From: a virus
Virus record (IMG/VR): IMGVR_UViG_3300032893_000004
Span: 32,001 to 96,000 of that record
Strand: one strand, 5' to 3'
DNA length: 64,000 bases
Both the position numbers and the translations under genes were made by a program. Below the pieces are notes generated by a model. The model was not told the origin of the DNA. It searched no databases and saw only the letters and a list, made by a program, of their open reading frames with translations. Positions 44,440 to 61,666 of the stretch are shown piece after piece; the first letter of the stretch is position 1; every line of letters starts with the position of its first letter.

Positions 44440-45699
44440 CTAGCAGTCCTTTTTCTTCCAGTGTCTCGGCTTCCAGTCCTGTTTCATGTCTTCCTTGATT
44501 TCATCCTTCGTCATCATAACACCGCATTTCTTGGTGCCCATCTCGCCTTTCTTGGTAGAAGAAGCATTGATCTGGCTTTCAGTCATCGGCTGAGTGGCAG
44601 AATTCGGATCTTTCACGCCGCCTGGCTTCACGCTCGTGCACGGGCTGATCTGCTCCGCCGTCTTTGGCTGGGTAGCAGAGTTCGGATCTTTAGTACCGCC
44701 GGTCTTGATACCCGTGGACGGACTAATTTTGCTTGCGTCCATAGTATTCGGATTCGGCTGAACACCTCGTTCTGCGAGAGCGAGTCCCATCTCGCTAGTC
44801 TTCGCAGTCTTTTTTTCAGAAGTTGCGAGACCTGCGACGGACGACATCTTTCGGAGTTCCTCAAACCTCTTCGGATCTTCCTTGGCGATCTTCAAGAGAT
44901 CTCTTACAGCGGTAAGTGTCTCTGACATAGCAAGAGGGCCTGCGTTGCCCGCACCAGCGATGGAAGTACCGGGCATATCGACTTTGTTCATCGATGCGTT
45001 CGGCTTGTGCGGAGGCACTCCGCCAGCAACTCGATTCTGAGGGGAGCGGAGCTGCGACGGCTCGTGCAGCGTACGGAGGTGCGAGAGCATCGCCTTCTGC
45101 TTATCCGGAGTATCGAGGATCTTCATGGCGTGATGAAGCGATTCGTCACCTTCCGCCACGTTGTGGGCTTCAGCTCGCGGACTGCCGGCCGGGTGAGGCT
45201 GATCGTCCTTCTTGACAGGTTGCGCATGAGGATGCATGGCGTCTTTCTTCATCTGTTCGGAAGGATATCCAGCGCCGGGGCTATCGGGACCGCAGTCGCC
45301 GCCTTGAGCTTCGCCGGCTGGATTCATCGTATCCTTCTTCATCTGGTCGCTCGGATAGCCTGCAGTCGTCGATTCGCTGGAAATTTGACCGCCGACTGGT
45401 TCAGCGTACTCTTCCTTGGTGATCTTACCGTCGCGGAGAGCTGCCTTTCGCTGATTCATCTCTTCTTTGTTCATCTTGTGTCCTGTGGCAGCCGCATGTT
45501 GGAAAGCTTCCTTACCGTACTTTTTGCGACCCACCGCAGCAGCAACTGCTCCCGGATCTCTGGCACCGGATTCTTTAGCCTTATTTTCAACGGCCTTGAA
45601 CCCCAGATATTTCTTGCTAAGTTCTTGAAACTGTTCGGGATTATCCTTTGCAGCTTTCAGGAGTTCTTTCGCTTGTTCAAGTACAGATTTCTTACTCAC
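44440..45699 (-). CDS. low-complexity modular putative virion (internal) protein
   Basis: GGAGAGG RBS; internal repeats; many M/L/V-x-K-D/E sites. Confidence 0.7.
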   Translation of the reverse strand: MSKKSVLEQAKELLKAAKDNPEQFQELSKKYLGFKAVENKAKESGARDPGAVAAAVGRKKYGKEAFQHAAATGHKMNKEEMNQRKAALRDGKITKEEYAEPVGGQISSESTTAGYPSDQMKKDTMNPAGEAQGGDCGPDSPGAGYPSEQMKKDAMHPHAQPVKKDDQPHPAGSPRAEAHNVAEGDESLHHAMKILDTPDKQKAMLSHLRTLHEPSQLRSPQNRVAGGVPPHKPNASMNKVDMPGTSIAGAGNAGPLAMSETLTAVRDLLKIAKEDPKRFEELRKMSSVAGLATSEKKTAKTSEMGLALAERGVQPNPNTMDASKISPSTGIKTGGTKDPNSATQPKTAEQISPCTSVKPGGVKDPNSATQPMTESQINASSTKKGEMGTKKCGVMMTKDEIKEDMKQDWKPRHWKKKDC

Positions 45700-45734
45700 C
45701 GTTCACCTCTCCGAGAGATAACTTAGACTCAGTA

Positions 45735-45743
45735 CAGATTAGG
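45735..45743 (-). promoter_or_regulatory. candidate late promoter CCTAATCTG
   Basis: Motif variant about 35 nt before GTG. Confidence 0.55.
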
Positions 45744-47481
45744 CTTTGCTCTTCATGAGCTTTCTCAAGCCCTTAGGCTCGCTCTTCTTCACCGTCCCGT
45801 GCTTCAAAGCTTCCATAACTTCTTGTCTGATCCGGTCATTTCCTTTCAGATGCTCTTCCAAGCCAGGGTAGGATTTGTCGTATTGACCGTGTATGTACAG
45901 GCCTACCTTTCGATTGTTTTTGTCAGCTGCGGCTAGATCCGACGCCATCGCATCTGCGTAGCCTGCCTTCTTCATAGTGGCCTCGTCAGGGAATACAACT
46001 GCGTGCGGCTTCGAGGGATCGATAAGGTGATCGTACTTCGAACCGAGGGATTGAACGATGTTGAAGTTGGGCAGCTTTTCAAGTTCATCGAGATGCTTGC
46101 GCAGAGCCGGATGATGGCTTTTCGTATATGCATAGAACATTAGCTCGGGGTTCGCCCGTGCTATCTCCGTCCATTTTTTAATGTAATCTGGCGAGTAGAA
46201 GTCGCCCGAATCGTGCACTCGGATCGCTTTTATCTTACCCTTCTTCTTGACCTCGTCGAACATCTTGTTCATCTTCTCGACGAAGTCTGGCTTCTGCGAT
46301 GCCAGCCAGTTTGCTACCCTAGGAGGCATGGTCGTCTTGTGGAATCGCAGGAAGGAGCCTGTATCAGCGTAGCAGTACTTCGCGCATGAACCAGCACCTG
46401 GGCACGTTTCGATAGGAACGAGATTGAACGACGCGATGCCGTCCTTCGCGAGCTTCGAATTGGTCGTACTGAGCGACACTTTAGTCTTCTCAGGGTTGGC
46501 CATCATGTCCGCTTTAACGTCCTTTACACGTTGGCGCTGATTCGGACGCTGAGCGTGAGGACTATCCGGATGCAGACCCGATACCGGTTTTGGAGCTGCC
46601 GGAGGTTTAGGTGATTTCTCCGCTTTCCCGAATAGTGCCCCGATTTCTTGCCGCACGTTTGCCCACCCTTCCTTGTTGGGAAGGCCGCCGCTGTTGGCTC
46701 TCTGAACTGCGGCCCCTGCGTCGTAAGATGGTAAGCGAGGTGGAGGCAGCGGAGTCGCGGAACCCGCTTCGCCGTCTTTGTTCATAGGAATCTCGTCCTT
46801 GACGGTTGCCTTGCCTGGCTTGACGTTCGAACTATCGGTTGTCCCGAGCAGCTTCATGGACATTCGCTTGCCGTCGTGCTGATTCTTGCGCCACACATCT
46901 GTGACGAACTTAGCAGCCTCAGAACGGAGAGGATGATCGTACGGGATGACGTTCCCCGCAGCCATATGCTCCTTGAGAGAGTGAGGAATTTCTACCCCTG
47001 CCACGTGAGTCTCTGGTTTTCGTACCGGTGAATTAACCGGAGCCTTCGCGTCTTTCGGCGAGATGCCGACTTTGAAACCTTTCGGGAGAGCCTTCTGAAT
47101 GACTCGGCCGAACCCTTTAGGTTTCGGCGGTTCTTTGACCGTGACGGTTCCGAACCCTTTAGGTTTCGGCGGTTCTTTGACCGTGACGGTTCCGAAGTTC
47201 TGCTTCGGGGCGGCGGAAGGCGCCTGATCATTACCGAATTCAGCTTTCGCGTATGCGACGCGCTTAAATCCATTCCTGACCATGGTCTGCCACGGCGCCG
47301 ACAGCAGGCCGCCGGAGTATAGGTGCTGGCCTGTCATCTGATCGTTCGGGTTTCGAGCACCAGCACCGGAAATAGTCGATCCGCCTAAGGTATCCTCGGA
47401 TTGATGCTGCGAAATGTCATTCGCGCCGCCGGAAGTGATGCCTTTGAGATTCGAGTCCGAGTTGTCCTGATCCATGGGCAA
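45739..47481 (-). CDS. modular protein with C-terminal GP88-like (radical-SAM-like) domain
   Basis: NSKL...FNL...TCPGAGSCAKYCYA...IRVHDSGDF...FYAYTK. Confidence 0.75.
   Translation of the reverse strand: MPMDQDNSDSNLKGITSGGANDISQHQSEDTLGGSTISGAGARNPNDQMTGQHLYSGGLLSAPWQTMVRNGFKRVAYAKAEFGNDQAPSAAPKQNFGTVTVKEPPKPKGFGTVTVKEPPKPKGFGRVIQKALPKGFKVGISPKDAKAPVNSPVRKPETHVAGVEIPHSLKEHMAAGNVIPYDHPLRSEAAKFVTDVWRKNQHDGKRMSMKLLGTTDSSNVKPGKATVKDEIPMNKDGEAGSATPLPPPRLPSYDAGAAVQRANSGGLPNKEGWANVRQEIGALFGKAEKSPKPPAAPKPVSGLHPDSPHAQRPNQRQRVKDVKADMMANPEKTKVSLSTTNSKLAKDGIASFNLVPIETCPGAGSCAKYCYADTGSFLRFHKTTMPPRVANWLASQKPDFVEKMNKMFDEVKKKGKIKAIRVHDSGDFYSPDYIKKWTEIARANPELMFYAYTKSHHPALRKHLDELEKLPNFNIVQSLGSKYDHLIDPSKPHAVVFPDEATMKKAGYADAMASDLAAADKNNRKVGLYIHGQYDKSYPGLEEHLKGNDRIRQEVMEALKHGTVKKSEPKGLRKLMKSKA
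47108..47196. repeat. perfect 42-bp tandem duplication encoding FGTVTVKEPPKPKG x2
   Basis: Units 47108-47149 and 47150-47191 identical. Confidence 0.9.
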
Positions 47482-47490
47482 AAGATTAGG
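47482..47490 (-). promoter_or_regulatory. candidate late promoter CCTAATCTT
   Basis: Exact motif, 6 nt before ATG 47475. Confidence 0.65.
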
Positions 47491-47493
47491 CTG

Positions 47494-49734
47494 TCAATAC
47501 GTTTTTAAGACCTGCTGGCCTAAGCGAAGCTCAGGAGGATGGAAGCGTATGCCGACATCTTTGGCCGTCAGAGCCGTACCTAGCTTGGACAAACGATTCC
47601 AATCGGCCTCATCTATCGCTACGTAAGGTTTGGCGTTCGTCTTAGGTCCTATCTGACTGAGGGCCACTCTCATGTGGTCGAGCTTCTTAGGCATGCCGTA
47701 GACCATCAAAACGTGCTCTTCTCGCCCGTCGATGCCTCTTAACTTGTGCGGGACATATGTCATCTTATCGTCCACTATCGGCTGATGGAGAGCATACTGT
47801 TCGAGTTGCGACCGAATGCTGTCATGGTTCAACGTCGAGGAATTGCCAAAGTCCTTGACCTTCATGCTGAATCGAGACCCATCTTTACGAGTCGTTTTCC
47901 CGCCAATCGTTACCGGATAGACTAAGTCCAGAGTAGGTGCCGGGGCGATCGTAGCTTCTGCTTTGTTGAACGCTTCGTATCCTTCAACCTCCGCCAATAC
48001 CGAGTTGGCGTCGATCTTGCGATTACGAGATATCAGACCACCTTCGCTGCCGCTCTTGATAAATGACACCATCGCACCGCAATACTTAGAGAATCGAACT
48101 TCCCTTGCGTCGCAGTCTTCGAGAATCTTGGCCAGCCACTTCGGTACGCCGGTTTCCTCTTTCACTTCGACTATGACGTAGTCGTCTTTTCGGATGCTAA
48201 GATGCCGTTTCTTGAAATCTTTCCAGTAGGACGAGTCTTTGATCATCTGCATCGACTCTGGAGATAACTGCTTAGCGTCAGAATAGCGAATGGAATCATC
48301 GATGGTTACTCTAAGCTTTTCGCTTGAGTAAGCTCGTCGCTGGTAGGTGACGACGATCTGCTTTCGGAATCCATATTTTTCTATGATCGTATTGATAGAA
48401 ACGACCCGCTTCCACAAGATATCCTTAGGGATGTCGACGTTCAACTTTTCCAGATCTTCATCGATGCGAACTAGCTCGCCGTTCGATATTGCGTCTATCG
48501 ATTCCGCTCTGATACGGATACGGATCTTCTTCGTTTGATCGTCCTTAGTCTTAAGCTTCAGTTCTAGGTACGCAACATCTTCCCAATGTTCACCGTTCGG
48601 CGAATATTGTCGTATCCGCACCTTGAAGCGAGGCTTTCTTCGCTCCATGTTATCGCGCATCGCGTCCAGGTCCGGATTGTCGAGGTAGATCGTCTTGTTG
48701 ACATTGAAACGAACGGAAGTATCCGGATCTCCGTCAGGCAACGAACTCTTGATACCGCTCAAAAGCTTGTCGAGGTTCTCAGATGGCATGAAGTGCTTCG
48801 TCTCTACGCGATTCATCAAAGCACTCGTATCCTCGTTGTGGATGATCTCGACTTTCTTCAGCGGTTTGACCGGGCCGAGGTAACTGTCCGCGAACGCGGC
48901 GCCGGCGCGAGTCATGTCTGGAGAACGAATCAGCTTCTTGCCTGATATCTTCTGGGCGTGGTCAACTAGCGCCGATCCGTTTCCTTGCCGTTGATGCAGC
49001 TTGTTAACTTCAAAGTTGAACGGCATGATCCCGTTCGGCTTATGAGTCATAGCTACGAATCCGATCTGCTTGCCGCCTTTGTGCATGCGTACGATGAAGT
49101 CGTGCTTGCGCGGATCGAACACCGACTTGTCGACCGCGAACGGCTCGACGGTGATGCGGCTGCGCACCTTTTCGATCGCTTGACAGACGCCGCTGATCGG
49201 CTCTTCCTGGCCGCAAACGATGCAGCGTGGATGCCCGTTTGGAAAGGTCCACTTGGCCGATTTGAAATCGTGAGAGCGGTGAGCTTCCGGTTTCTTTTTA
49301 TTCTCTCGTATCTTTTCGGTCTCAGCCTCGTACGATATCTGAGACTTCTTCAGACTCAGGCCCATCCAGTCTATTAGAATATTTCGCTTACCCGGCACGT
49401 GCATGTTGGAGTGCGTCGTCGGGTCCAGGAACTTGAACGTCACGAACTCGTGATCGGGATCTGACGTCGGATCGATATCGGCGTGGTCATGATGATCTGC
49501 CGCGTGCAGGACGACGTGATTATCTCCGTAGATCTTTTCGTGAATCTTATCTATCTTAACGCCCTTGATACCTGTCTCTTCTTCCAATTCGCGATTGGCT
49601 GCTTCTTGGTCCAATTCGCCAGGCTTGACATGACCGCCTGGGAGAGCCCACTTGTGATTATCTCGACGAAGCCCATGCAGGAACAGGTTTGGCTCGGAAG
49701 GATGTCTGATGGCTATGCAGACTACCTTCTTCAT
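47494..49734 (-). CDS. polyvalent protein: Nudix + small Zn module + GNAT + VTC/CYTH + possible degenerate 2H domain
   Basis: PGGHVKPGELDQEAANRELEEETG (Nudix box); VNKLHQRQGNGSALV (GNAT motif A); RVETKH, IYLDN, KVRIRQY, LELK, YQRRAY, LRVTID, IVEVK, FSKY (VTC). Confidence 0.85.
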   Translation of the reverse strand: MKKVVCIAIRHPSEPNLFLHGLRRDNHKWALPGGHVKPGELDQEAANRELEEETGIKGVKIDKIHEKIYGDNHVVLHAADHHDHADIDPTSDPDHEFVTFKFLDPTTHSNMHVPGKRNILIDWMGLSLKKSQISYEAETEKIRENKKKPEAHRSHDFKSAKWTFPNGHPRCIVCGQEEPISGVCQAIEKVRSRITVEPFAVDKSVFDPRKHDFIVRMHKGGKQIGFVAMTHKPNGIMPFNFEVNKLHQRQGNGSALVDHAQKISGKKLIRSPDMTRAGAAFADSYLGPVKPLKKVEIIHNEDTSALMNRVETKHFMPSENLDKLLSGIKSSLPDGDPDTSVRFNVNKTIYLDNPDLDAMRDNMERRKPRFKVRIRQYSPNGEHWEDVAYLELKLKTKDDQTKKIRIRIRAESIDAISNGELVRIDEDLEKLNVDIPKDILWKRVVSINTIIEKYGFRKQIVVTYQRRAYSSEKLRVTIDDSIRYSDAKQLSPESMQMIKDSSYWKDFKKRHLSIRKDDYVIVEVKEETGVPKWLAKILEDCDAREVRFSKYCGAMVSFIKSGSEGGLISRNRKIDANSVLAEVEGYEAFNKAEATIAPAPTLDLVYPVTIGGKTTRKDGSRFSMKVKDFGNSSTLNHDSIRSQLEQYALHQPIVDDKMTYVPHKLRGIDGREEHVLMVYGMPKKLDHMRVALSQIGPKTNAKPYVAIDEADWNRLSKLGTALTAKDVGIRFHPPELRLGQQVLKTY

Positions 49735-50747
49735 TCTTCATCCTCCGACAGCGGATCCGGTCTCTTAGGTGGCTGCGGTTTCTTGGCTGGCTCGTCTCCC
49801 TGCATCTGCCATCCTTGAGCTTCCGCGTATTTCAAGTACGCTGCAGGTGTCTTTGGGCCGTTCAAAACATACGTGTCGACCTTGAAACCCTGCAGCTTCG
49901 GGGCCGCGTACTTGATGAAGTTTGCTTCCACCTGCCCCGTGAACGTCATCATGCAAGAGTATACCATCTCCGTACCGTTGAAGTGCGGGTTGATGTCGAT
50001 GGAACCGACGTTGAATGTAGACAGGGCCACGCCGCGCCGTTCGATGTAAGCTTCCTTGTAACGCAGAAATATGTACTGGATCAGTTGTCGCATCCAGATA
50101 GCTTGGTTCATGTCCGACTCGGTGTGCATTCCGATCGCGAACGTCTCCTCAAGCCACGTTCTTTCCTTCGACAGATTCCAGAGCGCTGTCGGCGGAGCGA
50201 TGTATGCCTGAGTAAAATCGTCGACCGTTCCTTCCGCGATCGTGAACGTCGACTGGCCGGAAACCGTATTGATGACGTACGCCTTTCCTGACACTTTGGA
50301 TACTAGAAACTGACCGACGAACATCCTGCTGGTCGTAAGGTTCGACGGTAACGTTAAGGTACCGGTCGACGGATCGTACGCAACGGCAGTGAACGGTCCG
50401 TACATCTGCTGAGGCAGAGCTGTTATGTTATGAGGTACGATCTCGGAATCGTCAAGACCATCGCCCAGCTCGTCTCGCTCGGTCATCTCTCTGGAGGATA
50501 GCCTCACGACCGATATGCACGGAAAACGCGGCGTATCCACGCGATTAGTGAGGTACACGTCGATGTTGTTGCCTAGGAACCACTCCTTAGCGCGCATGAC
50601 TTCTTTCCACCCGTAATCCATCTTGGCAAGCGGGTCGAGCGCTAGATCGGCATAGATATCATCCAAGATCCAGTTATTCTTCCGCAGATCAGCGAGAGCG
50701 CCTTCGATCATCGTTTTAAGCAGAATGTCTGTTGCCTGTACGCCCAT
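49731..50747 (-). CDS. tail completion/terminator-like protein
   Basis: FPCISV motif; position between neck genes and sheath. Confidence 0.55.
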   Translation of the reverse strand: MGVQATDILLKTMIEGALADLRKNNWILDDIYADLALDPLAKMDYGWKEVMRAKEWFLGNNIDVYLTNRVDTPRFPCISVVRLSSREMTERDELGDGLDDSEIVPHNITALPQQMYGPFTAVAYDPSTGTLTLPSNLTTSRMFVGQFLVSKVSGKAYVINTVSGQSTFTIAEGTVDDFTQAYIAPPTALWNLSKERTWLEETFAIGMHTESDMNQAIWMRQLIQYIFLRYKEAYIERRGVALSTFNVGSIDINPHFNGTEMVYSCMMTFTGQVEANFIKYAAPKLQGFKVDTYVLNGPKTPAAYLKYAEAQGWQMQGDEPAKKPQPPKRPDPLSEDEE

Positions 50748-50748
50748 G

Positions 50749-51690
50749 TTACTCCGTCGACAGCTGGCGCTCTATACCAGGGACGATCACGTCGCGCCAT
50801 TGTCTCTCAGCGTGTTCGTAGGCCGACTGAAAGAAGTTGGCAGCTTCCACTGCAGGGTACATCCAACGGTTCTCTGCCTTGTGCTTCGAAGAAATCGTCC
50901 GGAACACAACTGTTTCTTTCTTAACTTTCTTTCCAACTTTGCGCTGGACCTGTACAGCGCCTTGTAGCTTGAAAATGCCAGCGTGCGGTGGTAGAGGTCT
51001 CATGCCACCGGCTCCGGTCTTAGCCGAATCCTCCGAACTGCGAGGGTTGGAGTAGAGCACGCCGGGCGCGAAGCCTGTAGCTTCTGCGGCGCGGATGTCG
51101 AGTTTCCGTATGATTCCTATCTTGGCTGTACCGTCGGAGTTCTTCTCGATGACAGTAGGTGATATGTTGTTCGCTTTCAGGTGAGCGAGCACGATGTTGG
51201 CTAGAATAGGATTAGCGCCTGGAGCCGGCTTCCTTCCTTCCGTCTCTTTGAAAGGAATAGCCCGATAGAGAGATCCGTCCTTCGCACGCTTGACGCCCTT
51301 GGCGCCCGGCTTTAAGAGCCAGTCACCCATGAACATTTCTTGTCGACCTTCTTCGAGCCAGCGGGCTCTCTCGTCCAATTCTACCATCCAGATACCGTCG
51401 GCGATCTTGATCCAGCGAAGATTCTTGACTGTTTGATCGATGCGCGGATCCTTCGAAGATACCCCGTGCGCACCTTTCCCTTCTTTGCCGATACCTAGAT
51501 AGTGCTCTCGCTTGAAGTTGGAATTAGCCCACTTCGTGTTCGCCTGATTGATGATATACGCGTGCGTCGCTATCGAGAGAGTTTCGACTGCTTGAACCAC
51601 GAGAGGTTCTACCTGGGAACGGGTCTTCTCAAGCTGCTCTGCTACGGCGGAGACATCTACCTTGAATCGGAATGCGGCGACGTTGTTCAT
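50749..51690 (-). CDS. neck/tail-completion protein (HK97 gp10-like)
   Basis: ARWLEEG, FRTIS, WMYPAVEAANFF pattern. Confidence 0.55.
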   Translation of the reverse strand: MNNVAAFRFKVDVSAVAEQLEKTRSQVEPLVVQAVETLSIATHAYIINQANTKWANSNFKREHYLGIGKEGKGAHGVSSKDPRIDQTVKNLRWIKIADGIWMVELDERARWLEEGRQEMFMGDWLLKPGAKGVKRAKDGSLYRAIPFKETEGRKPAPGANPILANIVLAHLKANNISPTVIEKNSDGTAKIGIIRKLDIRAAEATGFAPGVLYSNPRSSEDSAKTGAGGMRPLPPHAGIFKLQGAVQVQRKVGKKVKKETVVFRTISSKHKAENRWMYPAVEAANFFQSAYEHAERQWRDVIVPGIERQLSTE

Positions 51691-53563: not shown

Positions 53564-53578
53564 GATAATTCATCCTAG

Positions 53579-55504
53579 TTAAATGCCGTGATTCTTCTTG
53601 ATCAGCAGTCGGCTCTTCAAAGTGAGCAGGAAGAGTTTGACGATTTCAGGGTCGGCACCCTTCGCGAATTCCATCCCGTAGGAGCCGTCCGACTTTCGAA
53701 GCACCTTCACAAACTTGGAAGGATTACCTTCCTCGTCTTTCTTCATTACCAAGAAACAGGCGCACGGCTGGAACTGCGGATTGCCATCCTGTCCCTTCAC
53801 GAATTCCGGTACACCGCACTGAGAACAGGCGGACTTGTACAGCTGTTCTTCGGTAGCAGTCGATCGCATCGGCTCAGATTTGCCGAGCTTACTGCGGAAA
53901 TAGTCAGACTTGTTCATAGACGGCGGTTTCGGTGCGCCTGGAGTATGCGGCGGCTTGATCTTGCCTTTGCCGGACATCTGGGACTGCTTCGCTGCCTGAG
54001 CCGCCGGATTGTTACCGGGAGCGACCGGAGGCTTCGGCATCTGAGGCGGTTTCGGTGCCATCGGCTGACCGGCGCCTTTTGGCATCTCACCTTTGCCCAT
54101 TTCTTCTTTTTTAATTTTCAATTTGATGGAATCAGCATCGGCTATCTTGTCCGCAACTGCTTGACCCACCGCCGGGTCCATTTGATCCTTATGAACATGC
54201 TTCGGTAGATGATGTCCTTCGGTGGCGCGGTCCCATTCCTTTACTGCCGCTTCGCCGCCGAGAGCCCGTTTGCCTGCCGGACTGTGGCCCCAAGCAGCTT
54301 GAGCTTGGGAAGCCCACGGTTTCGAAAGCATTTCCATCTTTTTGCGAAAATATTCGTGCGCCTGGTTCTTTCCTGGCGATGCCGTTCCGACCGTATCTGT
54401 CCGCTGCTCTGTCGGATTCAGCGTTCCTTTTTTGAAAGGCGTCTCGGGTTCTTGGACAGGCTTATGATTACCTGGACCGAAAGGTTTTTCTTGGTGCGGC
54501 TCGTCAACGCGGGCGGCGCCGACAGGATCGATCTTCGGTTTCGTAGCAGGATCTTGAGTCGAACCAGATTCAATTTTCTTGTCCGACATAGGAGGATCTT
54601 GCTTCTTGAACGGTTTCTCTTCCTGCTGGGACGGAGCTTGTTTTCCAGGCTTGAACGGCGTCTGGGAACGAAGATTGACGGTTTCGTCTGTTCGATCTTC
54701 TCCAGCTTTCACCTTCTGGGGTTTTGTTGCCGGCTCTTCTAGATCTGTCGTATCCTTGCTCTTGTTACGGTCGAGCTGAGCGTACGAATCAGATGGGCGA
54801 ATCGTGGAAGTGTCAGCTCGTTTCCTGGTAGTATCGCTCATCTTCTTTTCCTCTTTGGCAGTTTCGTCAAGTTCAGACTCTAACCGTTCCCTTTGCATCT
54901 GCTTAGCGGTCAGCGCGTCGACGAGTTTGCCGATAACAGCGGTCATCTCCCTCACGTTGGCGTGAGACATGGTCCATTTTATGTTTTCTGGATCTTCTTT
55001 CGTCTGAATATTCGCCATCGAGATCATATGGCGGAGGGATTCGTGCTCCGGTGCCTCAGCTTTCGGCTCGGCTAGCTCAGGCTTCGCCTTGACCTCTTCG
55101 GCGACAAGATCGTCTGCAGTCTTCGGTTTGTCGAATTCGTGATACATCTCGCCTACAGACAACAGGTGGCCGGATGCCGCTGGTAGGGACTGCTTCTCGA
55201 ACTGGTGGATGACGCGTCCGCCTTGAACGAACTCCATGCGGTACTGGTCAGGAGCCTGCTTCTCGATGTGAATCATGATGTCGTCGCGGCCAGGAAACTT
55301 GATATCTTTGATCTCGCCCTGTCTCATCGGATTGATGTTTTGAACGAGCCAAGATAGAATCGTTCTCGGAACAACTATCAACGGAAGATAAAATTCGAGT
55401 GGATCAACGACGGCCTGAGTCCGCTGCTTGTATATGGCCTTTTCGAGAGTTTCATACCCTCGATCGCCAAGAATTGACTTGAGCAGCTTCTGACTGTCGT
55501 TCAT
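53579..55504 (-). CDS. large modular putative head/internal protein
   Basis: Low-complexity centre, repeated x-x-K-S/A/G sites, C-terminal CSQC/CAC. Confidence 0.7.
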   Translation of the reverse strand: MNDSQKLLKSILGDRGYETLEKAIYKQRTQAVVDPLEFYLPLIVVPRTILSWLVQNINPMRQGEIKDIKFPGRDDIMIHIEKQAPDQYRMEFVQGGRVIHQFEKQSLPAASGHLLSVGEMYHEFDKPKTADDLVAEEVKAKPELAEPKAEAPEHESLRHMISMANIQTKEDPENIKWTMSHANVREMTAVIGKLVDALTAKQMQRERLESELDETAKEEKKMSDTTRKRADTSTIRPSDSYAQLDRNKSKDTTDLEEPATKPQKVKAGEDRTDETVNLRSQTPFKPGKQAPSQQEEKPFKKQDPPMSDKKIESGSTQDPATKPKIDPVGAARVDEPHQEKPFGPGNHKPVQEPETPFKKGTLNPTEQRTDTVGTASPGKNQAHEYFRKKMEMLSKPWASQAQAAWGHSPAGKRALGGEAAVKEWDRATEGHHLPKHVHKDQMDPAVGQAVADKIADADSIKLKIKKEEMGKGEMPKGAGQPMAPKPPQMPKPPVAPGNNPAAQAAKQSQMSGKGKIKPPHTPGAPKPPSMNKSDYFRSKLGKSEPMRSTATEEQLYKSACSQCGVPEFVKGQDGNPQFQPCACFLVMKKDEEGNPSKFVKVLRKSDGSYGMEFAKGADPEIVKLFLLTLKSRLLIKKNHGI

Positions 55505-55513
55505 GGACCGTCC

Positions 55514-55915
55514 TTAGTTGTTTGAGCCGCTGTTCGGATTTAGCTGAAGATCGTCCTGTAACCAGTATCCAAAAGTCGTCGCACTGTTCGAGATGATCCA
55601 GTTATTCTGACCCATCGGGATTATCAAGTACGAGTTGGGCGGTACTGCGATACCATTCGACGGATTGGTAGGTGCCGAGACCGTATTGCTGGTTCCGAGG
55701 GCAACGAAAGAAGTCGATGTGGAGTTGTTGTAGACAGCCACAAGAGAACCGAGGTCGACTCCGACCGCCGCGTTCAAGGCGCCGAGATACTGCTGGACAA
55801 CGCCGAAGATAGGGCCCATGATCTTGGCCGCACCGGCGTACTGATTGAACGCGTCCTCGGTAGCCATATCGGCGCCATAGCGATCCTGCGATGGTTTTGA
55901 CCTAATTTTGTTCAT
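55514..55915 (-). CDS. virion structural protein
   Basis: AGGAG RBS, late motif upstream, beta-rich. Confidence 0.65.
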   Translation of the reverse strand: MNKIRSKPSQDRYGADMATEDAFNQYAGAAKIMGPIFGVVQQYLGALNAAVGVDLGSLVAVYNNSTSTSFVALGTSNTVSAPTNPSNGIAVPPNSYLIIPMGQNNWIISNSATTFGYWLQDDLQLNPNSGSNN

Positions 55916-55938
55916 AAACGATCTCCTATGTTGCCCAA

Positions 55939-55947
55939 AAGATTAGG
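55939..55947 (-). promoter_or_regulatory. candidate late promoter CCTAATCTT
   Basis: Exact intergenic motif. Confidence 0.65.
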
Positions 55948-55949
55948 CT

Positions 55950-56882
55950 TCAAAGCATCCCGCCGTCTTTACCGCCGTCATTTGGACCAGTTACGCCGCC
56001 GACAGGCGGAGCATTCTGAAATCTCTGATCGGCTCGGGATCGCATCGGATCGTTGTTCTGGTTGCTCATGACGTTTTCGCGGTAGATCAGCGCCTGAAAC
56101 GGCATCCTCTCGACGTTTCGTTCGAAGGTCATCGGATCGGTGATCTGGCTGATGCGAATCTCATGCATCATGCGGGCGACCACGAAATATGGGGTGTACC
56201 GATACCGAACTGCAAAAACCGTTCCTTTCAAGGTCTTATCGTTCCAGCCGGGTCGATTCTGAGAGATCCAGCGAATCATACCTCCGTTCTCCCCGCGCTC
56301 GTTCGGCACGGTAAGCTCAAAATCCACTCCTTGCGTGTACTCCTTTCCGTCTGCGTCAATCAAGTACTCTACGAACGTGGCCGGATACTGGAGCTTGTCT
56401 AAGCCGGTCGAATTTGCTTCCAGGTATTGGAAGGCAACTACGCGAACTTCGACGTCTTTTAAATAAAAACGGTCGTACGAGGAAATCAGAACGTCTTTTT
56501 CAGGATCGTCCTCGTACTTCATCGGGCACGTCACAACTGCCGCGTCGTGCTTCGTAAGTCCTTCGACCTCGATTTCCCAGTCAGACGTGCTGGCCGAGAA
56601 CCAGATATGCATCGTGCCGGCTTCCTTGTATAGAAAACCGTCGGATGACGAGCGGGCGGCCAGGACGGCGTGGACGTCGCCTATAGAAGACATTCCGGTC
56701 GGATCCGGCAACGCCCGATAATGTACGACGTTGACGCCTTGCCCTTTGATCAAGTTGTCGAACGCTTCTTTGTCGAACGACTGCTGGTAGTGCGCCAGGT
56801 TGAAGATCTGCTGCATGCCGTCAACTGGCTTCGGATCTCGGCGGCGCGGGCCGCCACGACGCTTCGGATTACTTTGCGGCAC
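55950..56882 (-). CDS. neck / head-closure protein
   Basis: FDNLIKGQG..V.HYRA, YDRFYL, YTQGVDF, AVRYRYTPYFVV. Confidence 0.6.
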   Translation of the reverse strand: MPQSNPKRRGGPRRRDPKPVDGMQQIFNLAHYQQSFDKEAFDNLIKGQGVNVVHYRALPDPTGMSSIGDVHAVLAARSSSDGFLYKEAGTMHIWFSASTSDWEIEVEGLTKHDAAVVTCPMKYEDDPEKDVLISSYDRFYLKDVEVRVVAFQYLEANSTGLDKLQYPATFVEYLIDADGKEYTQGVDFELTVPNERGENGGMIRWISQNRPGWNDKTLKGTVFAVRYRYTPYFVVARMMHEIRISQITDPMTFERNVERMPFQALIYRENVMSNQNNDPMRSRADQRFQNAPPVGGVTGPNDGGKDGGML

Positions 56883-57336
56883 GGTATTCCTCGATGAGCG
56901 CAGCTGGCTCTGTTAGGGCGCAAGAACGAACGAGAGTACCTTTTGAGTATTCCGACGGAACGAAGTCTTGGGATTTCATAACCTCGATCCTGGCCGTGTC
57001 CAAGGAGTAGACCATGACGATATCCTCCGGGCCGACCGGCTTGTCGAACGACGGCATGAACATCATCTTGCGGAGCTTCTGAAAATGATCGTCCTGAGAC
57101 TTAGCCAACGATTCAGATTTTTGAAAGTTATCTTCCCAGTTGATCTTTTCTTTCTTGCCGGCGAGAAATCTAGCGATTGCCAGATGCGGCGCCGCCCCGA
57201 TAGAAGCGATGCCTTCCGGCGTCTTTACGAAGAAAGCGTGCAGACCGCCTTTGGTCAAAATATAAACCACCGGCCGGCCGTCCTCGGTCTTGCCAGCTAT
57301 CGCTTTGTCTTCGATCTGATCAGCTGAAATCTTCAT
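56869..57336 (-). CDS. hypothetical virion-associated protein
   Basis: Coupled in late operon; FQKS/LAKS motifs. Confidence 0.65.
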   Translation of the reverse strand: MKISADQIEDKAIAGKTEDGRPVVYILTKGGLHAFFVKTPEGIASIGAAPHLAIARFLAGKKEKINWEDNFQKSESLAKSQDDHFQKLRKMMFMPSFDKPVGPEDIVMVYSLDTARIEVMKSQDFVPSEYSKGTLVRSCALTEPAALIEEYRAAK

Positions 57337-58379
57337 ATCTTATCGTTTACTCTCCTGATATTTTCCATGACGCGACCCATCGGGTCCTTCATAGAGCTTG
57401 GAGTGATATCGTCAAGAGCATCGTCGCGCTTTCGGCCTGGATCGGGCTGATAGTTCGACGAATGCATAGGTTCAGCGGTCAGTTCATCTTCGCGCCTCTT
57501 GAACCAGTTCTTGACACGAGTCCGAAAATCTTCCGAATCGACGTTCGGCATCGTTTTCTTGACCGATGACAGGGCCCGTTTCGGCGCGAAGGGGTTTACC
57601 TTGTCGACTTGCTTGTACTTAGACACGTACTCGCTGTTGATGAGCTTAGAGTCTGGTATCTCGTCTGGGTGCAAGTTGTGACCGTGAAGCCACGAGAACG
57701 CAGCCCTGTGCGGGTCGCCCTTCTGCTTGGCCATCACGTGCTGCGCTAGCTGGCGAGCAAGGTTCAGCTCGACCTGCGGATTCTTCTTGAAATACTCTTC
57801 TGTCATGTCTCGCGACATGGTTTCCAGCTGCCGCATCTCCGGAGTGATCTGACCTTTCGCACGCATGCGCGTGGTCATCTCGTCGATGGTCGGCTTCAGC
57901 ATTCCCCACTTGCCTATAGCCTTGGATCCTTTGAACTTACCAGACACGATCGGCTTGTGCTGCGTGTTCTGGCCGCCCGACGACTCCAGCTGCTCGACGT
58001 TCCACAAGAACCGATCCATCGGATGCTTGCCGAAGTCAGTCGACGTCTCCTGCTTGCCTGCTTGCGTCGGCTTAGACGGTAACACAGTCGGCTTCTGGAT
58101 AGTGTGACCGTCTCCGGCCATCGCCGTCGATAACGAGAGCCCGAGCGCCAGCGCCTTGGCGCGCAGAGACTTTGAAAGATCCGCGTCTTCTACCCACGCA
58201 GACATCGCGTGGCCGGATAGATATTCTGCGATCGAGTCGACGGCTTCTCGCAAGGTATCGCACGACATGGCGATCTCGTTCGTCATCGGGAACATCGCGA
58301 AGACAGGATGCAGATCTTCGAAGTCCGCGATCTTGAACCACTTTCTTTCCGCATCCGGATACTGCAAGTATAAAATCAT
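57333..58379 (-). CDS. modular protein with lytic transglycosylase/lysozyme-like domain
   Basis: QLESSGG (catalytic Glu), AIGKWGML, AAFSWLHG, YV. Confidence 0.7.
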   Translation of the reverse strand: MILYLQYPDAERKWFKIADFEDLHPVFAMFPMTNEIAMSCDTLREAVDSIAEYLSGHAMSAWVEDADLSKSLRAKALALGLSLSTAMAGDGHTIQKPTVLPSKPTQAGKQETSTDFGKHPMDRFLWNVEQLESSGGQNTQHKPIVSGKFKGSKAIGKWGMLKPTIDEMTTRMRAKGQITPEMRQLETMSRDMTEEYFKKNPQVELNLARQLAQHVMAKQKGDPHRAAFSWLHGHNLHPDEIPDSKLINSEYVSKYKQVDKVNPFAPKRALSSVKKTMPNVDSEDFRTRVKNWFKRREDELTAEPMHSSNYQPDPGRKRDDALDDITPSSMKDPMGRVMENIRRVNDKI

Positions 58380-60151
58380 GCAGCCTTCCTTTCGTTCATA
58401 AGTCGCCTGAAGTGTTCGCCCCAGTGCGACAGAATTTCTTTCTTGTCGTCGGGAAGCTGATCGATGGCGTCCGCGATCGACTTCATGTGCTCATACTTGA
58501 AAGTTGGTTCGCCGGCACTCCAGTTTCTTTCAGAAAAGTGCCTAAGCATCTGATTCTTCACATCGATGTCTGGTTCGGAACGGATAACTTTCGTGGACAT
58601 GTGCGGATTCTCGACAACAGAACGGAAGATGTCACCGGCTTCTTCCGGCGTCATGTCCGTCATTATCTTCTTGATAGCACCGTGCAACAGAGATCTCTGG
58701 TTCATTGTGAGACGACCTTTCTTGTTCACTATATCAGAAATCGCGAAAAGTGCGTCTTTTTTATTTTTCGGCAGAGATCTCAGCTGTTTAGCTGTCACAC
58801 AAGGCCTTTCTTGCGGAATAATGCGTCCTGGCGAGAAACGATCGTCCAGTGACGATTCTTGCCACATAGCATCGTCGTTTGGGTCAGCCGACACGTTCGA
58901 GGCCCAGTCGTTCATCTTATGCCAGCGATCGTGGAAGTTGTCGCGGACATGCTTGCGGACCGATTCGTCCTTTATCGATTGAACCTGTGCGTCCATCTCG
59001 TCTCGAATCTTCTGGCCGTGCTGTTTCCACCAATCAACCAGATCCTCGTGAGAATGCCAAGCGTTCCGGTTTGGTCGCAGAGCGTGATCCAAAGAAGACG
59101 AATGCAAGTACGACATAGGTGTCTCTTTCGAGATGTCGTGGGTGTCAGACTGCTTCCAGTGCAGATCTCCAAGCTTCCTGTGATACTGAAAATTACGCTC
59201 GTGATCGATCGCGAGGAGTGGATTGGTACCGCGCGGAGTAGTCCAGTTGCCTATCATCAGATTACCGTTATGACGATCCAGATTATTAGCAAGATAGTCC
59301 ATCACTGCTATCTTGTGTACGTCCAGGGGATCAACGTGAGCTTCGATGTTGCGGCTGCCGCGAGACGATATGAGCTGTCCTATGGATTTGTGGTCCGGCG
59401 CGAACTTGCGAACCGTCAGAGGAACGCCGTCGTGCTCGTGAGTCGATACATCTTCCGAAAGATGCCCGATTCCGCCAGCATCGAATAAAGCTTTTGTCGC
59501 CATGGTAGCCCACCCCAAGATAGGATTCTTGACCCACCGCTTCGTGGCCGACTCGATCTTCTTGTGGTACGGCTTGGCCATGTAAATGTCATTCTCCCCA
59601 GACTGATGCACCATCTTGGCCGAAATGCCATTTTCATCCAGTTTATGCGGCTTATGAACCGTGTCAGACGACAGTATCTTCGTGTAATCAGGTGGCGCTG
59701 GGAATTTTTCGAGATGTTGTTTGTGATCGACCGTAAGATGGGCATCGGCATCATTCTTGTTAGCGACCCGATTCCAGTCTTTCGTTCTAACTTTCTTTTC
59801 GAGATCGTGCATCGTCAGATCAGACAAGATATATCCAACCTGAACAGAGAATTCTCCTACGGATTTTGCCAGGAGCGTGCGGTGGAAATTCGACGGCAGT
59901 TCAGCTAGCTTCTGCTGTCGGAATGAGCTAGATGCGTTATACTCCTCAGCGAATTGAAGCGGAGTCTTCCCGTCCATGACTCGCCAGAATATGGCAGGCG
60001 TCATGCCGTTGATTCGGTTCTGGAACGACTTCGAGAGATCTGGACCTATCTCAGACTGTAGATCGCGCAGGAATTCATCAGCAGAAATCTTCGGCATCTC
60101 TGACTTCTTGATCGTCCTGCTTCGTTGTTCCGCCCATTTCTTTATCTTCAT
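58376..60151 (-). CDS. modular protein with PI3K/PI4K/HipA-like kinase domain
   Basis: YMAKPY, DYLANNLDRHNGNLMI, LAIDHE. Confidence 0.75.
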   Translation of the reverse strand: MKIKKWAEQRSRTIKKSEMPKISADEFLRDLQSEIGPDLSKSFQNRINGMTPAIFWRVMDGKTPLQFAEEYNASSSFRQQKLAELPSNFHRTLLAKSVGEFSVQVGYILSDLTMHDLEKKVRTKDWNRVANKNDADAHLTVDHKQHLEKFPAPPDYTKILSSDTVHKPHKLDENGISAKMVHQSGENDIYMAKPYHKKIESATKRWVKNPILGWATMATKALFDAGGIGHLSEDVSTHEHDGVPLTVRKFAPDHKSIGQLISSRGSRNIEAHVDPLDVHKIAVMDYLANNLDRHNGNLMIGNWTTPRGTNPLLAIDHERNFQYHRKLGDLHWKQSDTHDISKETPMSYLHSSSLDHALRPNRNAWHSHEDLVDWWKQHGQKIRDEMDAQVQSIKDESVRKHVRDNFHDRWHKMNDWASNVSADPNDDAMWQESSLDDRFSPGRIIPQERPCVTAKQLRSLPKNKKDALFAISDIVNKKGRLTMNQRSLLHGAIKKIMTDMTPEEAGDIFRSVVENPHMSTKVIRSEPDIDVKNQMLRHFSERNWSAGEPTFKYEHMKSIADAIDQLPDDKKEILSHWGEHFRRLMNERKAA

Positions 60152-61220: not shown

Positions 61221-61232
61221 TTTGTCTCCGAT

Positions 61233-61634: not shown

Positions 61635-61666
61635 TGCACGGAATCCTCCGACGGATTTGTACACTG

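What the first reader, a model, noticed from the sequence alone, without database searches (positions are those of the whole stretch)
44440..60151. Block of late polyproteins with domains delimited by a hydrophobic-x-K motif: candidate protease-processed virion cargo system
Seen: eight ORFs among the neck/tail genes repeat [LMFVI]-x-K-[SADKV] at domain junctions. In 47494-49734: Nudix|LKKS|Zn module|IEKV|GNAT|LKKV|VTC|FNKA|last domain. Also LSKS before the transglycosylase; LSKS, LAKS, LEKK before the kinase; FGKA and VKKS/LMKS around GP88; LEKA, LSKP, MNKS, LGKS, LYKS in 53579-55504; LNKT, LNKA in 51687-52901; LSKK, MNKE, MKKD x2, VKKD in 44440-45699. The motif is not prominent in sheath, tube, fibre or baseplate proteins. 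Known: head proteases of large myophages (T4 gp21, phiKZ gp175) cut internal proteins at short motifs, and phage polyvalent proteins deliver enzymes early in infection. Inference: the motif is a capsid-targeting/cleavage signal that allows cassette-like swapping of enzymes released in the head and injected with the DNA.
Basis: partly seen in the sequence, partly recalled or inferred. Interest (0 to 1): 0.8.

Follow-up and report, generated by a model that had tools for sequence, protein, structure and literature searches.

The report
Lysine-cut phage head cargo polyproteins
In this 155-kb relative of Myxococcus phage Mx1, Lys-rich multi-enzyme proteins encoded between the head and tail genes are joined by the short motif hydrophobic-x-Lys followed by Ser/Thr/Ala. 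The same motif marks the capsid protein's N-terminus, the scaffold and the head protease's own tail, so the head protease probably cuts these proteins into separate enzymes inside the capsid, but no cut has been measured.

Summary
The broad motif [LMFVI]xK[SADKV] is only 1.5x enriched (53 vs 36). The signal lies in Ser (Thr/Ala) after the Lys. LxKS occurs 10 times against 1.9 expected, while other Lys-rich proteins of the genome show 1 vs 2.8, and Lys/Asp/Glu after the Lys shows no excess (36 vs 35).

The enrichment recurs in three environmental relatives and in cultured phage Mx1. In the Nudix–Zn–GNAT–VTC–2H protein the sites fall at AlphaFold confidence dips and at the ends of modules that relatives gain or lose.

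Outside the window, the genome encodes an assemblin-fold prohead protease (T4 gp21, Z 10.7) fused to a kinase. Its own tail, the SPO1-type capsid protein's N-terminus and the scaffold all carry L-x-K|[S/T/A]. The SPO1 scaffold has 11 such sites.

Best reading (about 0.6): polyvalent-type cargo polyproteins processed by the head protease, analogous to T4, phiKZ and SPN3US but with Lys at P1. The ClpP-like gene next to the block is probably not the protease. A capsid-targeting role for the motif, packaging and injection remain untested.

The scan reached the same reading on several other Mx1-like genomes.

The parts
58376..60151 (-). 591-aa Lys-rich protein. An N-terminal ~120 aa carries IKK|S (res 14), LSK|S (39) and LAK|S (94), followed by a PI3/PI4-kinase-like domain. 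It is a paralog of the kinase fused to the prohead protease.
   Evidence: PF00454 E 1e-7; sites; 36% identity to the catalytic core of the protease-fused kinase.
57333..58379 (-). 348-aa protein. A ~70-aa N-terminal region ends in LSK|S (res 68; window 58167-58178), followed by an SLT-type lytic transglycosylase (~118-265).
   Evidence: The site is kept as LSKS / ISKS / LEKG in three relatives. SLT is supported by Atlas feature and structure hits. There is no Pfam hit.
56869..57336 (-). 155-aa protein with tandem sites FQK|SE and LAK|SQ (window 57097-57126). In L003 the homolog is 472 aa and shares only residues 1-79.
   Evidence: Sites are kept in 3 of 3 relatives with a variable P2 residue.
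53579..55504 (-). 641-aa Lys/Pro-rich protein. It has an N-terminal pair LLK|S (res 7) and LEK|A (res 20), and a C-terminal cluster MNK|SD, LGK|SE, LYK|S, LRK|S (window 53690-53917). It is the richest motif carrier (12 broad hits vs 5.8).
   Evidence: The N-terminal pair is also present in the Mx1 homolog (FLK|S, LQK|A).
51687..52901 (-). 404-aa protein with an acidic, low-complexity middle. Sites: LNK|T (129), VAK|S (317), VVK|TE (325), LNK|A (337).
   Evidence: The sites are conserved as h-x-K-[S/T/A] in most relatives.
47494..49734 (-). 746-aa polyprotein: Nudix | LKK|S | Zn module | IEK|V | GNAT-like | LKK|V | VTC | FNK|A | 2H-phosphoesterase-like last domain. Junction codons lie at window 49342-49353, 49165-49176, 48850-48861 and 47959-47970.
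   Evidence: Pfam. AF2 pLDDT dips at 128-133, 188-190, 290 and 597. The L002 homolog lacks the Zn module and VTC, with a single SLKK|AE where the window has LKK|V..[VTC]..FNK|AE. K130 is invariant in 16 family members.
45739..47481 (-). 580-aa protein: N-terminal Lys/Pro-rich half, FGK|AE (res 284; window 46621-46632), GP88 domain (339-520), then VKK|SE and LMK|S at the C-terminus.
   Evidence: PF17338 E 1e-36. The L002 homolog (766 aa) shares only residues 91-284, so similarity ends at the FGK|A site.
44440..45699 (-). 419-aa Lys-rich, internally repeated, probably disordered protein just upstream of the sheath gene. It is a weak member, with only LLK|A (res 13) fitting the refined motif.
Evidence: No homolog was detected in the relatives' loci.
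61686..62369 (-). ClpP-like serine protease gene flanking the block. It is probably not the maturation protease.
   Evidence: PF00574 E 4e-33. It scores as cellular ClpP (110 bits) and below the cut-off of the head-maturation ClpP model (49.8 < 120). The Mx1 homolog sits among replication genes. None was found in the G001 contig, which is 86% complete.
49731..51690 (-). Two interleaved low-motif structural genes (338 and 313 aa), conserved with Mx1. They are neck or tail-completion candidates, not cargo.
   Evidence: 30% and 27% identity to Mx1 genes in the same order. One broad-motif hit each (VSKV, VGKK), at or below expectation, and no refined S/T/A site.
55514..56882 (-). Two interleaved low-Lys structural genes (133 and 310 aa; phrog_1004 virion structural protein) without motif hits.
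60153..61664 (-). Two low-Lys structural genes (355 and 143 aa), syntenic with the Mx1 genes that follow its capsid gene. Neither has an internal motif site.

Best explanation
**Context and proposal**
- The window comes from a 155-kb myophage with an SPO1-type head module, distantly related to Myxococcus phage Mx1.
- Between the head-completion genes and the tail sheath gene it encodes seven or eight Lys-rich, mostly basic proteins built from swappable enzyme modules: Nudix, Zn module, GNAT-like, VTC, 2H-like, GP88, a PI3/4-kinase-like domain and an SLT transglycosylase.
- The modules are joined, and some N-termini are capped, by the site hydrophobic(P3)-x-Lys(P1)|Ser/Thr/Ala(P1'), often with Glu/Asp/Gln at P2'.
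- I propose that this is the recognition site of the phage's prohead maturation protease. That protease is an assemblin-fold Ser/His enzyme encoded outside the window (genome 112946-114661) and fused to a kinase.
- The polyproteins would be co-assembled into the prohead and cut there into single-domain enzymes. The fragments would stay in the head with the DNA and enter the cell at infection.

**Shown**
- The motif enrichment, and its replication in relatives.
- Its placement at module junctions.
- The protease fold and its conserved His and Ser.
- The same motif at the capsid N-terminus, in the scaffold and in the protease linker.

**Inferred**
- That the sites are cut, that the protease cuts after Lys, and that the proteins are packaged and injected.
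For: 1. **Enrichment.** LxKS is 10 vs 1.9 and hxKS is 18 vs 6.7 in the block. There is no excess in other Lys-rich proteins or for charged P1'.
2. **Replication.** LxKS ratios are 5.9 (L004), 4.0 (L002), 2.9 (L003) and 6.6 (Mx1, P 1e-5; hxKS 19 vs 4.3). LxKS is absent from the interleaved neck-like proteins of the three environmental relatives, with one site (1 vs 0.3) in Mx1.
3. **Conservation.** Motif lysines are more conserved than other lysines (0.79 vs 0.62, Fisher P 3e-4) while P2 varies.
4. **Junctions.** AF2 confidence dips and cassette indels fall on the sites. The GP88 protein's similarity to its L002 homolog ends at FGK|A. The Nudix family shows Zn, HExxH, GNAT, VTC and 2H modules in varied combinations, with h-x-K-[S/T/A] in the linkers.
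5. **Protease.** Residues 1-165 of the 571-aa protein match T4 gp21 (5jbl, Z 10.7, rmsd 2.6 Å over 124 aa) and VZV protease (Z 9.0). H47 and S126 are invariant in 42 homologs.
6. **Anchor substrates.** The protease linker has L-x-K-[T/A/S] with K in 41 of 42 sequences, followed by a copy of the capsid N-arm. The capsid N-terminus has LVK|T. The scaffold has MGK|SE, LTK|SE and LAK|A x2. The Mx1 scaffold and portal have LAK|SE, LKK|SD, LTK|S and ISK|SE.
7. **Lineage.** The capsid protein is SPO1-type. The SPO1 and f2b1 scaffolds have 11 and 9 sites vs ~1.3 expected, and their capsid N-termini have ..NK|ALEAG and ..SK|TFQTG.
8. **Cargo precedent inside the lineage.** The protease itself carries swappable C-terminal enzymes: kinase, GGDEF or PF18905. 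A portal family, phrog_15528, contains a Nudix-like segment.
Against: - No proteomic or N-terminal sequence data exist for this phage, for Mx1 or (in the held literature) for the SPO1-type site. Cleavage after Lys is therefore inferred from pattern alone.
- At the Nudix C-terminus K130 is invariant, but P1' is S, G, K, N, D, P, T or I across relatives. That lysine may be structural rather than a cut site.
- Two junctions in the window copy have Val at P1', which lies outside the enriched set.
- The giant 2191-aa protein in the head module shows no enrichment (3 vs 3.0).
- No common targeting peptide was found.
- The genes lie among neck and tail genes, not between portal and capsid.
- Shuffles ignore local sequence structure. 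The motif was refined after looking at the data, although Mx1 acts as a hold-out.
Confidence: 0.6

Rival explanations
1. The motif is a conserved linker or helix-end feature of these Lys-rich modular proteins and is never cut. It might, for example, be favoured at recombination joints or for solubility. The proteins would then act as intact multidomain enzymes, packaged or not.
For: P1' is variable at the invariant K130. AF2 draws one long helix (119-146) through the first site. There is no experimental cleavage data. Polyvalent proteins such as N4 vRNAP are packaged uncut (PMC5512222).
Against: The same tetrapeptide class sits at the capsid N-terminus, 9-11 times in SPO1-type scaffolds, and after the protease domain in 41 of 42 homologs. 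These are canonical protease substrates. The motif is absent from other Lys-rich proteins.
Confidence: 0.2
2. The sites are cut by the head protease, but the fragments are not delivered effectors. The proteins would serve as prohead core or scaffold-like filler or as neck-assembly factors, and would be degraded or expelled before or during DNA packaging.
For: Scaffolds in this lineage are dense in the same sites. Several block proteins (53579-55504, 51687-52901, 44440-45699) are low-complexity with no recognisable enzyme domain.
Against: Five of the proteins carry enzyme domains typical of injected polyvalent proteins, including a cell-wall SLT. The motif spares the domain interiors and sits in linkers. 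This fits release of intact domains rather than degradation.
Confidence: 0.1
3. The adjacent ClpP-like protease (61686-62369), not the assemblin-fold enzyme, processes the block proteins.
For: It lies directly upstream on the same strand in this genome and in G003, and probably in G002. It keeps the ClpP Ser and His motifs (MSCG at 92, HQVSG at 118). PHROGs hits are to head maturation proteases.
Against: It scores as a cellular-type ClpP and below the cut-off of the head-maturation ClpP model. In Mx1, which has the same motif enrichment, the homolog is among replication genes. G001 has none, although that contig is only 86% complete. The capsid-like cut site sits on the assemblin-fold protease itself.
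Confidence: 0.05
4. h-x-K-S/T is a phosphorylation consensus for the phage's two PI3K/HipA-like kinases rather than a cleavage site.
For: There are two kinase paralogs, one in the block and one on the protease. Ser/Thr is preferred after the Lys.
Against: Ala, which cannot be phosphorylated, occupies the position in 9 of 41 protease linkers and in the Mx1, SPO1 and DAC20 capsid sites. SPO1 shows the motif in its scaffold without a detected kinase in its head module.
Confidence: 0.05

Closest known systems
T4 gp21 prohead protease with internal proteins IPI-III/Alt, and phiKZ gp175 / SPN3US gp245 with their ejection proteins
   Same: An assemblin-fold Ser/His protease (Z 10.7 to gp21). A three-residue code with a defined P3, any P2 and a charged P1 is shared by the capsid protein, the scaffold/core, the protease itself and non-structural head proteins. 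SPN3US cuts at A-x-E with Ser preferred at P1' (PMC10052503).
   Different: P1 would be Lys instead of Glu. The substrates are multi-enzyme polyproteins with internal junction sites rather than mainly N-terminal propeptides. The genes lie among neck and tail genes. The head module is SPO1-type, not T4 or phiKZ. Cleavage is unproven here.
Polyvalent proteins of phages and conjugative elements (Iyer, Burroughs, Anand, de Souza, Aravind 2017, PMC5512222)
   Same: Two to many effector domains (Nudix, GNAT, kinase, lytic transglycosylase, zincin in relatives) sit in one late-expressed polypeptide near morphogenesis genes. Domain mosaicism between relatives is extensive. Delivery with the DNA is predicted.
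   Different: That work proposed processing mainly by an embedded zincin (MPTase) domain. Here a trans-acting head protease site marks the joints, and the window's copies lack the HExxH module, which is present only in relatives P0125, P0126, P0130 and P0132-P0135. The kinase here is PI3K/HipA-like, not the truncated Ser/Thr/Tyr-type kinase described there.
SPO1-type (Herelleviridae-like) head maturation module: SPO1 gp3.2 protease, gp3.3 scaffold, gp6.1 capsid protein
   Same: The capsid protein is 24-26% identical. The site h-x-K|[A/T/S]-[L/M/I]-E-A-G lies at the capsid N-terminus and after the protease domain. The scaffold is packed with h-x-K-S.
   Different: In SPO1 and f2b1 the genes sampled between the capsid and sheath genes show no excess of the motif (none in SPO1; 2 vs 1.3 expected in one Lys-rich f2b1 protein) and no enzyme polyproteins. 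The Mx1-like clade extends the code to a ~15-kb cargo block and fuses enzymes to the protease.
Myxococcus phage Mx1 (OR576727): 1479-aa 'NUDIX hydrolase', 'kinase' and 1239-aa 'putative prohead protease'
   Same: A syntenic block lies between the capsid and sheath genes with the same motif enrichment. Its protease also carries the capsid N-arm copy and a kinase.
   Different: Mx1 concatenates more modules into one chain and has different cargo. Only the Nudix segment, 34% identical over 104 residues, is detectably shared with the window's polyprotein. Neither the motif nor processing is mentioned in its genome announcement.

Membership tests
Prohead-protease-processed head cargo (T4 / phiKZ / SPN3US type system) | The phage encodes an assemblin-fold (gp21 / HK97 gp4 / herpesvirus) maturation protease with catalytic Ser and His. 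| tested here: met
   The AF2 model of residues 1-260 of the genome 112946-114661 protein matches 5jbl (Z 10.7) and 1vzv (Z 9.0); Foldseek gives herpes proteases at prob 0.9-0.98. H47 and S126 are invariant in 42 sequences. Pfam S78 and S77 models did not detect it.
Prohead-protease-processed head cargo (T4 / phiKZ / SPN3US type system) | One short motif is shared by the capsid protein's maturation site, the scaffold/core, the protease's self-cleavage site and the cargo proteins. | tested here: met
   The sequence pattern is present in all four classes. That these are real cleavage sites is inferred, not measured.
Prohead-protease-processed head cargo (T4 / phiKZ / SPN3US type system) | Cargo proteins are present in virions as cleaved fragments and are ejected into the host. 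| not testable with these tools
   No virion proteome exists for this lineage in the held literature.
Prohead-protease-processed head cargo (T4 / phiKZ / SPN3US type system) | An N-terminal capsid-targeting propeptide is removed at the motif. | tested here: inconclusive
   53579-55504 (LLK|S at res 7) and 58376-60151 (IKK|S at res 14) have early sites. Other proteins have their first site at residues 68-129. There is no shared N-terminal sequence.
Polyvalent proteins (Iyer et al. 2017) | Several unrelated effector or catalytic domains in one polypeptide, with mosaic architectures among relatives. | tested here: met
   Nudix + GNAT-like + VTC + 2H-like. Relatives carry Zn, HExxH, GNAT, VTC and 2H modules in varied combinations.
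Polyvalent proteins (Iyer et al. 2017) | An embedded zincin-like metallopeptidase (MPTase) as the processing domain. | tested here: not met
   None of the window's block proteins has an HExxH module. It appears only in some family members (P0125, P0126, P0130, P0132-P0135).
ClpP-related head maturation protease (NF045542), for gene 61686-62369 | Score above the model's curated cut-off, and a position inside the portal-scaffold-capsid module. | tested here: not met
   49.8 bits against a cut-off of 120, with a better match to cellular ClpP (110 bits). The gene is 8 kb from the capsid gene, and in Mx1 it lies among replication genes.
SPO1-type head module | Capsid protein homologous to SPO1 gp6.1, with an h-x-K|[A/T/S]-x-E-A-G site near the N-terminus. 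| tested here: met
   tblastn to SPO1 gp6.1 gives E 5e-12 and 24% identity over 92% of the query. Motif comparison.

The most novel reading that the evidence does not exclude
A widespread clade of Mx1-like phages (more than 120 protein clusters on 140-175-kb contigs) uses the Lys-specific cut site of an SPO1-type head protease as a universal joint. Any enzyme cassette flanked by L-x-K|S can then be spliced into late polyproteins or onto the protease itself, loaded into the prohead, released as a free domain and injected. This would give a plug-and-play, pre-made cocktail of nucleotide-signal-degrading, protein-modifying and wall-cutting enzymes that acts before any phage gene is expressed.
Probability: 0.4. 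Interest if true: 0.72.

Novelty: new variant of a known kind. Interest (0 to 1): 0.6.

Why it matters
- If the sites are cut, the motif gives a readable map of which proteins a large uncultured phage clade packs into its head, and of the exact mature fragments.
- It would extend head-protease-processed cargo from T4 and phiKZ-like giants to an SPO1-type lineage with the opposite P1 charge.
- It would link the bioinformatic class of polyvalent proteins to a concrete trans-acting processing mechanism.
- The cargo (Nudix, VTC/CYTH-type, 2H-like, GNAT, kinases, SLT) looks like early host-takeover or counter-defence equipment.
- Mx1 is cultured and carries the same features, so the idea is directly testable.

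Tried and rejected
Rejected by enrichment tests.
- **Lys content as the explanation.** Rejected, since other Lys-rich proteins are depleted.
- **ClpP-like gene as the maturation protease.** Judged unlikely.
- **60153-61220 as the capsid gene.** Rejected. It is syntenic with an Mx1 gene downstream of the capsid gene, and the real capsid gene is at genome 102461-103852.
- **Pfam S78 and S77 searches of the genome.** They found nothing. The protease was found only through the Mx1 annotation, an alignment and the fold search.
- **Megablast of the block against phages.** No match.
- **PDB sequence searches with the protease-kinase protein and the SLT protein.** Uninformative.
- **Shared N-terminal targeting peptide or paralogy among block proteins.** Not found by all-against-all BLAST.
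- **Literature on the cleavage site of SPO1-type capsid proteins.** Not found in the held library. I recall that Herelleviridae capsid proteins lose about 23 N-terminal residues, but I could not verify this.
- **VTC domain in the AF2 model.** Modelled poorly (pLDDT 25-48) because only four aligned sequences contain it. Low confidence across 290-597 is therefore not itself evidence of disorder.

Full report
**Setting**

The window is bases 32001-96000 of a 155,057-bp virus record rated 96% complete. Its sheath, tube, neck-like proteins, portal and capsid protein are 24-53% identical to those of Myxococcus phage Mx1 and lie in the same order. All genes in 40880-63816 are on the minus strand.

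Read in the direction of transcription, the order is:
- a ClpP-like gene (61686-62369);
- two low-Lys structural genes;
- the kinase protein (58376-60151);
- the SLT protein (57333-58379);
- a 155-aa protein (56869-57336);
- two low-Lys structural genes;
- a 641-aa protein (53579-55504);
- an HNH/EndoVII gene;
- a 404-aa protein (51687-52901);
- two structural genes;
- the Nudix polyprotein (47494-49734);
- the GP88 protein (45739-47481);
- a 419-aa repeat protein (44440-45699);
- an 87-aa ORF;
- the sheath (41369-44143) and the tube.

The motif-bearing proteins are 8.8-12.6% Lys and mostly have pI 8.7-9.6. The interleaved conserved structural proteins are mostly 2-5% Lys (8.9% for 50749-51690).

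**Is the motif more than chance?**

Splitting by the residue after the Lys shows where the signal sits.
- Ser gives 18 vs 6.7, and LxKS gives 10 vs 1.9 (z 5.9).
- Ser/Thr/Ala together give 32 vs 18.7.
- Asp, Glu, Lys, Arg, Asn or Gln give 36 vs 35.
- The KS dipeptide is not enriched, so the dependence is on the hydrophobic residue two places before the Lys.
- Shifting that residue by one place, in either direction, removes the effect.

The 38 other proteins of the genome with at least 8.5% Lys have LxKS 1 vs 2.8.

The pattern replicates in the homologous blocks of three IMG/VR relatives (57-84% identical marker gene). It also replicates in Mx1, whose cargo is largely non-homologous. LxKS ratios are 5.9, 4.0, 2.9 and 6.6, and Mx1 has hxKS 19 vs 4.3 (P 1.5e-7). 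The interleaved neck-like proteins show no excess.

Across alignments of the window proteins with their homologs in the three environmental relatives (L002-L004), motif lysines are kept in 79% of comparisons against 62% for other lysines (Fisher P 3e-4). The P2 residue drifts, for example FQKSE / FTKSE / FHKSE / LDKSE.

**Are the sites at module junctions?**

For 47494-49734, three independent lines agree.
- Pfam places NUDIX at 7-119, a weak GNAT at 214-265 and VTC at 308-558.
- An AF2 model built on 16 family members has confident domains at 1-127, 134-187, 191-289 and 598-746. Its pLDDT<50 segments lie at 128-133, 188-190, from 290, and up to 597. These fall on LKK|S, IEK|V, LKK|V and FNK|A.
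- The 401-aa L002 homolog lacks both the Zn module and VTC. Where the window reads ..PLKK|VE..[VTC]..AFNK|AE.., L002 has a single ..SLKK|AE...

Roughly 27% of residues lie within 8 positions of a broad-motif hit. All four junctions coinciding by chance is therefore of order 0.005 (a rough estimate).

Other relatives show the same behaviour.
- The L003 homolog (1267 aa) shares only the Nudix module.
- The GP88 protein's L002 homolog shares residues 91-284 and diverges exactly after FGK|A.
- The L003 homolog of the 155-aa protein is 472 aa and shares residues 1-79, just past the tandem FQK|SE and LAK|S sites.
- Sixteen Nudix-family polyproteins of 460-1074 aa combine Nudix, Zn, HExxH-zincin, GNAT-like, VTC and 2H modules. 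The linkers before the GNAT-like and 2H modules usually hold one or two h-x-K-[S/T/A] sites, whatever module lies upstream.

One caveat applies. K130, at the Nudix C-terminus, is invariant. The next residue, however, is S, G, K, N, D, P, T or I in different members. That lysine may therefore have a structural role, and not every listed site need be cut.

**Which protease?**

The genome has only one ClpP-family gene and no Pfam-detectable S78 or S77 protease. In Mx1 a 1239-aa protein between the portal and capsid genes is annotated as a putative prohead protease. Its N-terminal 370 residues are 37% identical to a 571-aa protein at genome 112946-114661, about 17 kb beyond the window end.
- An alignment of 42 homologs has invariant N44, E46, H47, S126, E128 and G129.
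- The AF2 model is confident over residues 9-165.
- It matches the T4 gp21 capsid assembly protease (5jbl, Z 10.7, rmsd 2.6 Å over 124 residues) and varicella-zoster protease (Z 9.0). Unrelated folds score Z 5.3 or lower.
- Foldseek independently lists only herpesvirus proteases at the top.

Directly after this domain, 41 of the 42 sequences have L-x-K-[T/A/S]-[L/I/M]-x-A-G-x-x-N-V-A-P-S-Q-L. This copies the capsid protein's N-terminus: here ..LESLVK|TLEAGNYNVAPSQL.., and in Mx1 ..LRK|AMEAGNFNAKPSTL...

The C-terminal module of this protease family is itself a swappable cassette: a PI3/4-kinase-like domain, GGDEF or PF18905. The kinase in the window's block is a paralog of the protease-borne one.

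The scaffold-like protein upstream of the capsid gene has MGK|SE, LTK|SE and two LAK|A. Its Mx1 counterpart has LAK|SE twice, plus LKK|SD and LAK|AE. The Mx1 portal has LAK|SE, LTK|S and ISK|SE near its ends. For capsid, scaffold, protease and portal together, LxK[STA] is 10 vs 2.2 (P 1e-4).

**Lineage**

The capsid protein is of the SPO1 type, 24-26% identical to SPO1 gp6.1, SP-10 and Bacteroides DAC phages.
- In SPO1 the scaffold gp3.3 has 11 h-x-K-S sites in 244 residues, against 1.3 expected.
- The SPO1 capsid protein has ..ALNK|ALEAG.. at residues 21-24, and the protease gp3.2 has ..PLDK|SLEAG.. after its catalytic domain.
- The Herelleviridae phage f2b1 has 9 scaffold sites and ..VISK|TFQTG...
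- Bacteroides phage DAC20 has ..LQK|AMEAG...

The motif is therefore the likely specificity of the whole SPO1-type protease lineage, not something invented for cargo. In SPO1 the genes between the capsid and sheath genes have no sites; in f2b1 one Lys-rich protein there has two, near expectation. What distinguishes the Mx1-like clade is the extension of this code to a ~15-kb set of enzyme polyproteins.

The site has the same architecture as T4's L/I-x-E| (from established knowledge; see also PMC10052503). It differs in having the opposite charge at P1.

**The ClpP-like gene**

The gene at 61686-62369 keeps the ClpP Ser and His motifs. However, it scores as a cellular ClpP (110 bits) and below the cut-off of the head-maturation ClpP model (49.8 vs 120). 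Its Mx1 homolog lies next to the primase-helicase gene. The G001 relative, which has the motif enrichment, has no ClpP gene on its 86%-complete contig. I rate it an unlikely processing enzyme.

**Mechanism and status**

Most likely, the Lys-rich polyproteins enter the assembling prohead. The assemblin-fold protease, itself recruited through its capsid-like segment, then cuts after Lys in exposed L-x-K|S/T/A linkers. The freed basic domains stay with the DNA and are delivered at infection. A virion-borne SLT would fit a role in crossing the cell wall.
- Shown: enrichment, replication, conservation, junction placement, the protease fold and conserved catalytic residues, and the motif on the canonical substrates.
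- Inferred: cutting, the P1 = Lys specificity, packaging and ejection.
- Not supported: a targeting function of the motif itself, because no shared N-terminal peptide was found.
- 44440-45699 is at best a marginal member.

**Comparison and novelty**

The system works like T4 gp21 with IPs/Alt, and like phiKZ/SPN3US proteases with their ejection proteins. The proteins fit the polyvalent-protein class of Iyer et al. 2017 (PMC5512222). They lack that class's proposed zincin self-processing module in this genome.

I file it as a new variant of a known kind. It is unproven experimentally, but it is directly testable in cultured Mx1.

Earlier notes of this scan reached the same reading on this genome's protease and on several other Mx1-like genomes. 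My tests were run independently of them, with one exception: a note's 'SPO1-type' wording prompted the SPO1 comparison, which I then carried out myself.

Noticed in passing
window 52898-53563 (-): A 221-aa HNH/endonuclease VII-like gene (phrog_1035, E 2e-17) sits between two block genes. It is absent from all three relatives, where the flanking genes abut within 15-18 bp. It is probably a recently inserted homing endonuclease.
   Followed up: partly
window 47494-47950 (-), residues ~598-746 of the Nudix polyprotein: The last domain is 2H-phosphoesterase-like. Relatives without VTC keep two H-x-T/S motifs (for example HMT and HIS). The window copy has SMK and YVA at those positions, and the two VTC-bearing relatives inspected (P0123, P0129) have lost the first His. 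Gain of VTC thus goes with loss of the first 2H catalytic His, and in the window copy of both.
   Followed up: partly
genome 112946-114661 (outside the window; L006:647-2362, - strand): The prohead protease is fused to a PI3/4-kinase-like domain and carries a copy of the capsid N-arm. In homologs the C-terminal module is replaced by GGDEF (PF00990) or PF18905.
   Followed up: yes
genome 105778-112353 (outside the window; L005:9778-16353, - strand): A 2191-aa protein between the protease and scaffold genes has no Pfam or PHROG hit and no motif enrichment (hxKS 3 vs 3.0). Its function is unknown.
   Followed up: no
window 44440-45699 (-): The 419-aa protein consists largely of three pairs of internal repeats: GYPS.QMKKD at residues 114 and 144, ..LLK.AK.. 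at 13 and 268, and KDPNSATQP at 337 and 363. No homolog was detected in the relatives' loci.
   Followed up: partly
L004:3295-3927 and L004:4442-5188; G002:C1:1945-3581: Two relatives carry two tandem ClpP-like paralogs upstream of the block, where this genome has one.
   Followed up: no
genome 105326-105829 (L005:9326-9829, - strand), residues 141-159: A short Cys-containing segment of a 167-aa head-module protein is 53% identical to the Zn module (residues 166-184) of the Nudix polyprotein (E 0.001). It is possibly the same mini-cassette in another context.
   Followed up: no
window 47494-49734 (-), residues 18-116: The Nudix module matches positions 534-631 of PHROG 15528, annotated as portal protein (E 2e-8). 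This suggests that portal-Nudix fusions exist in other phages.
   Followed up: no
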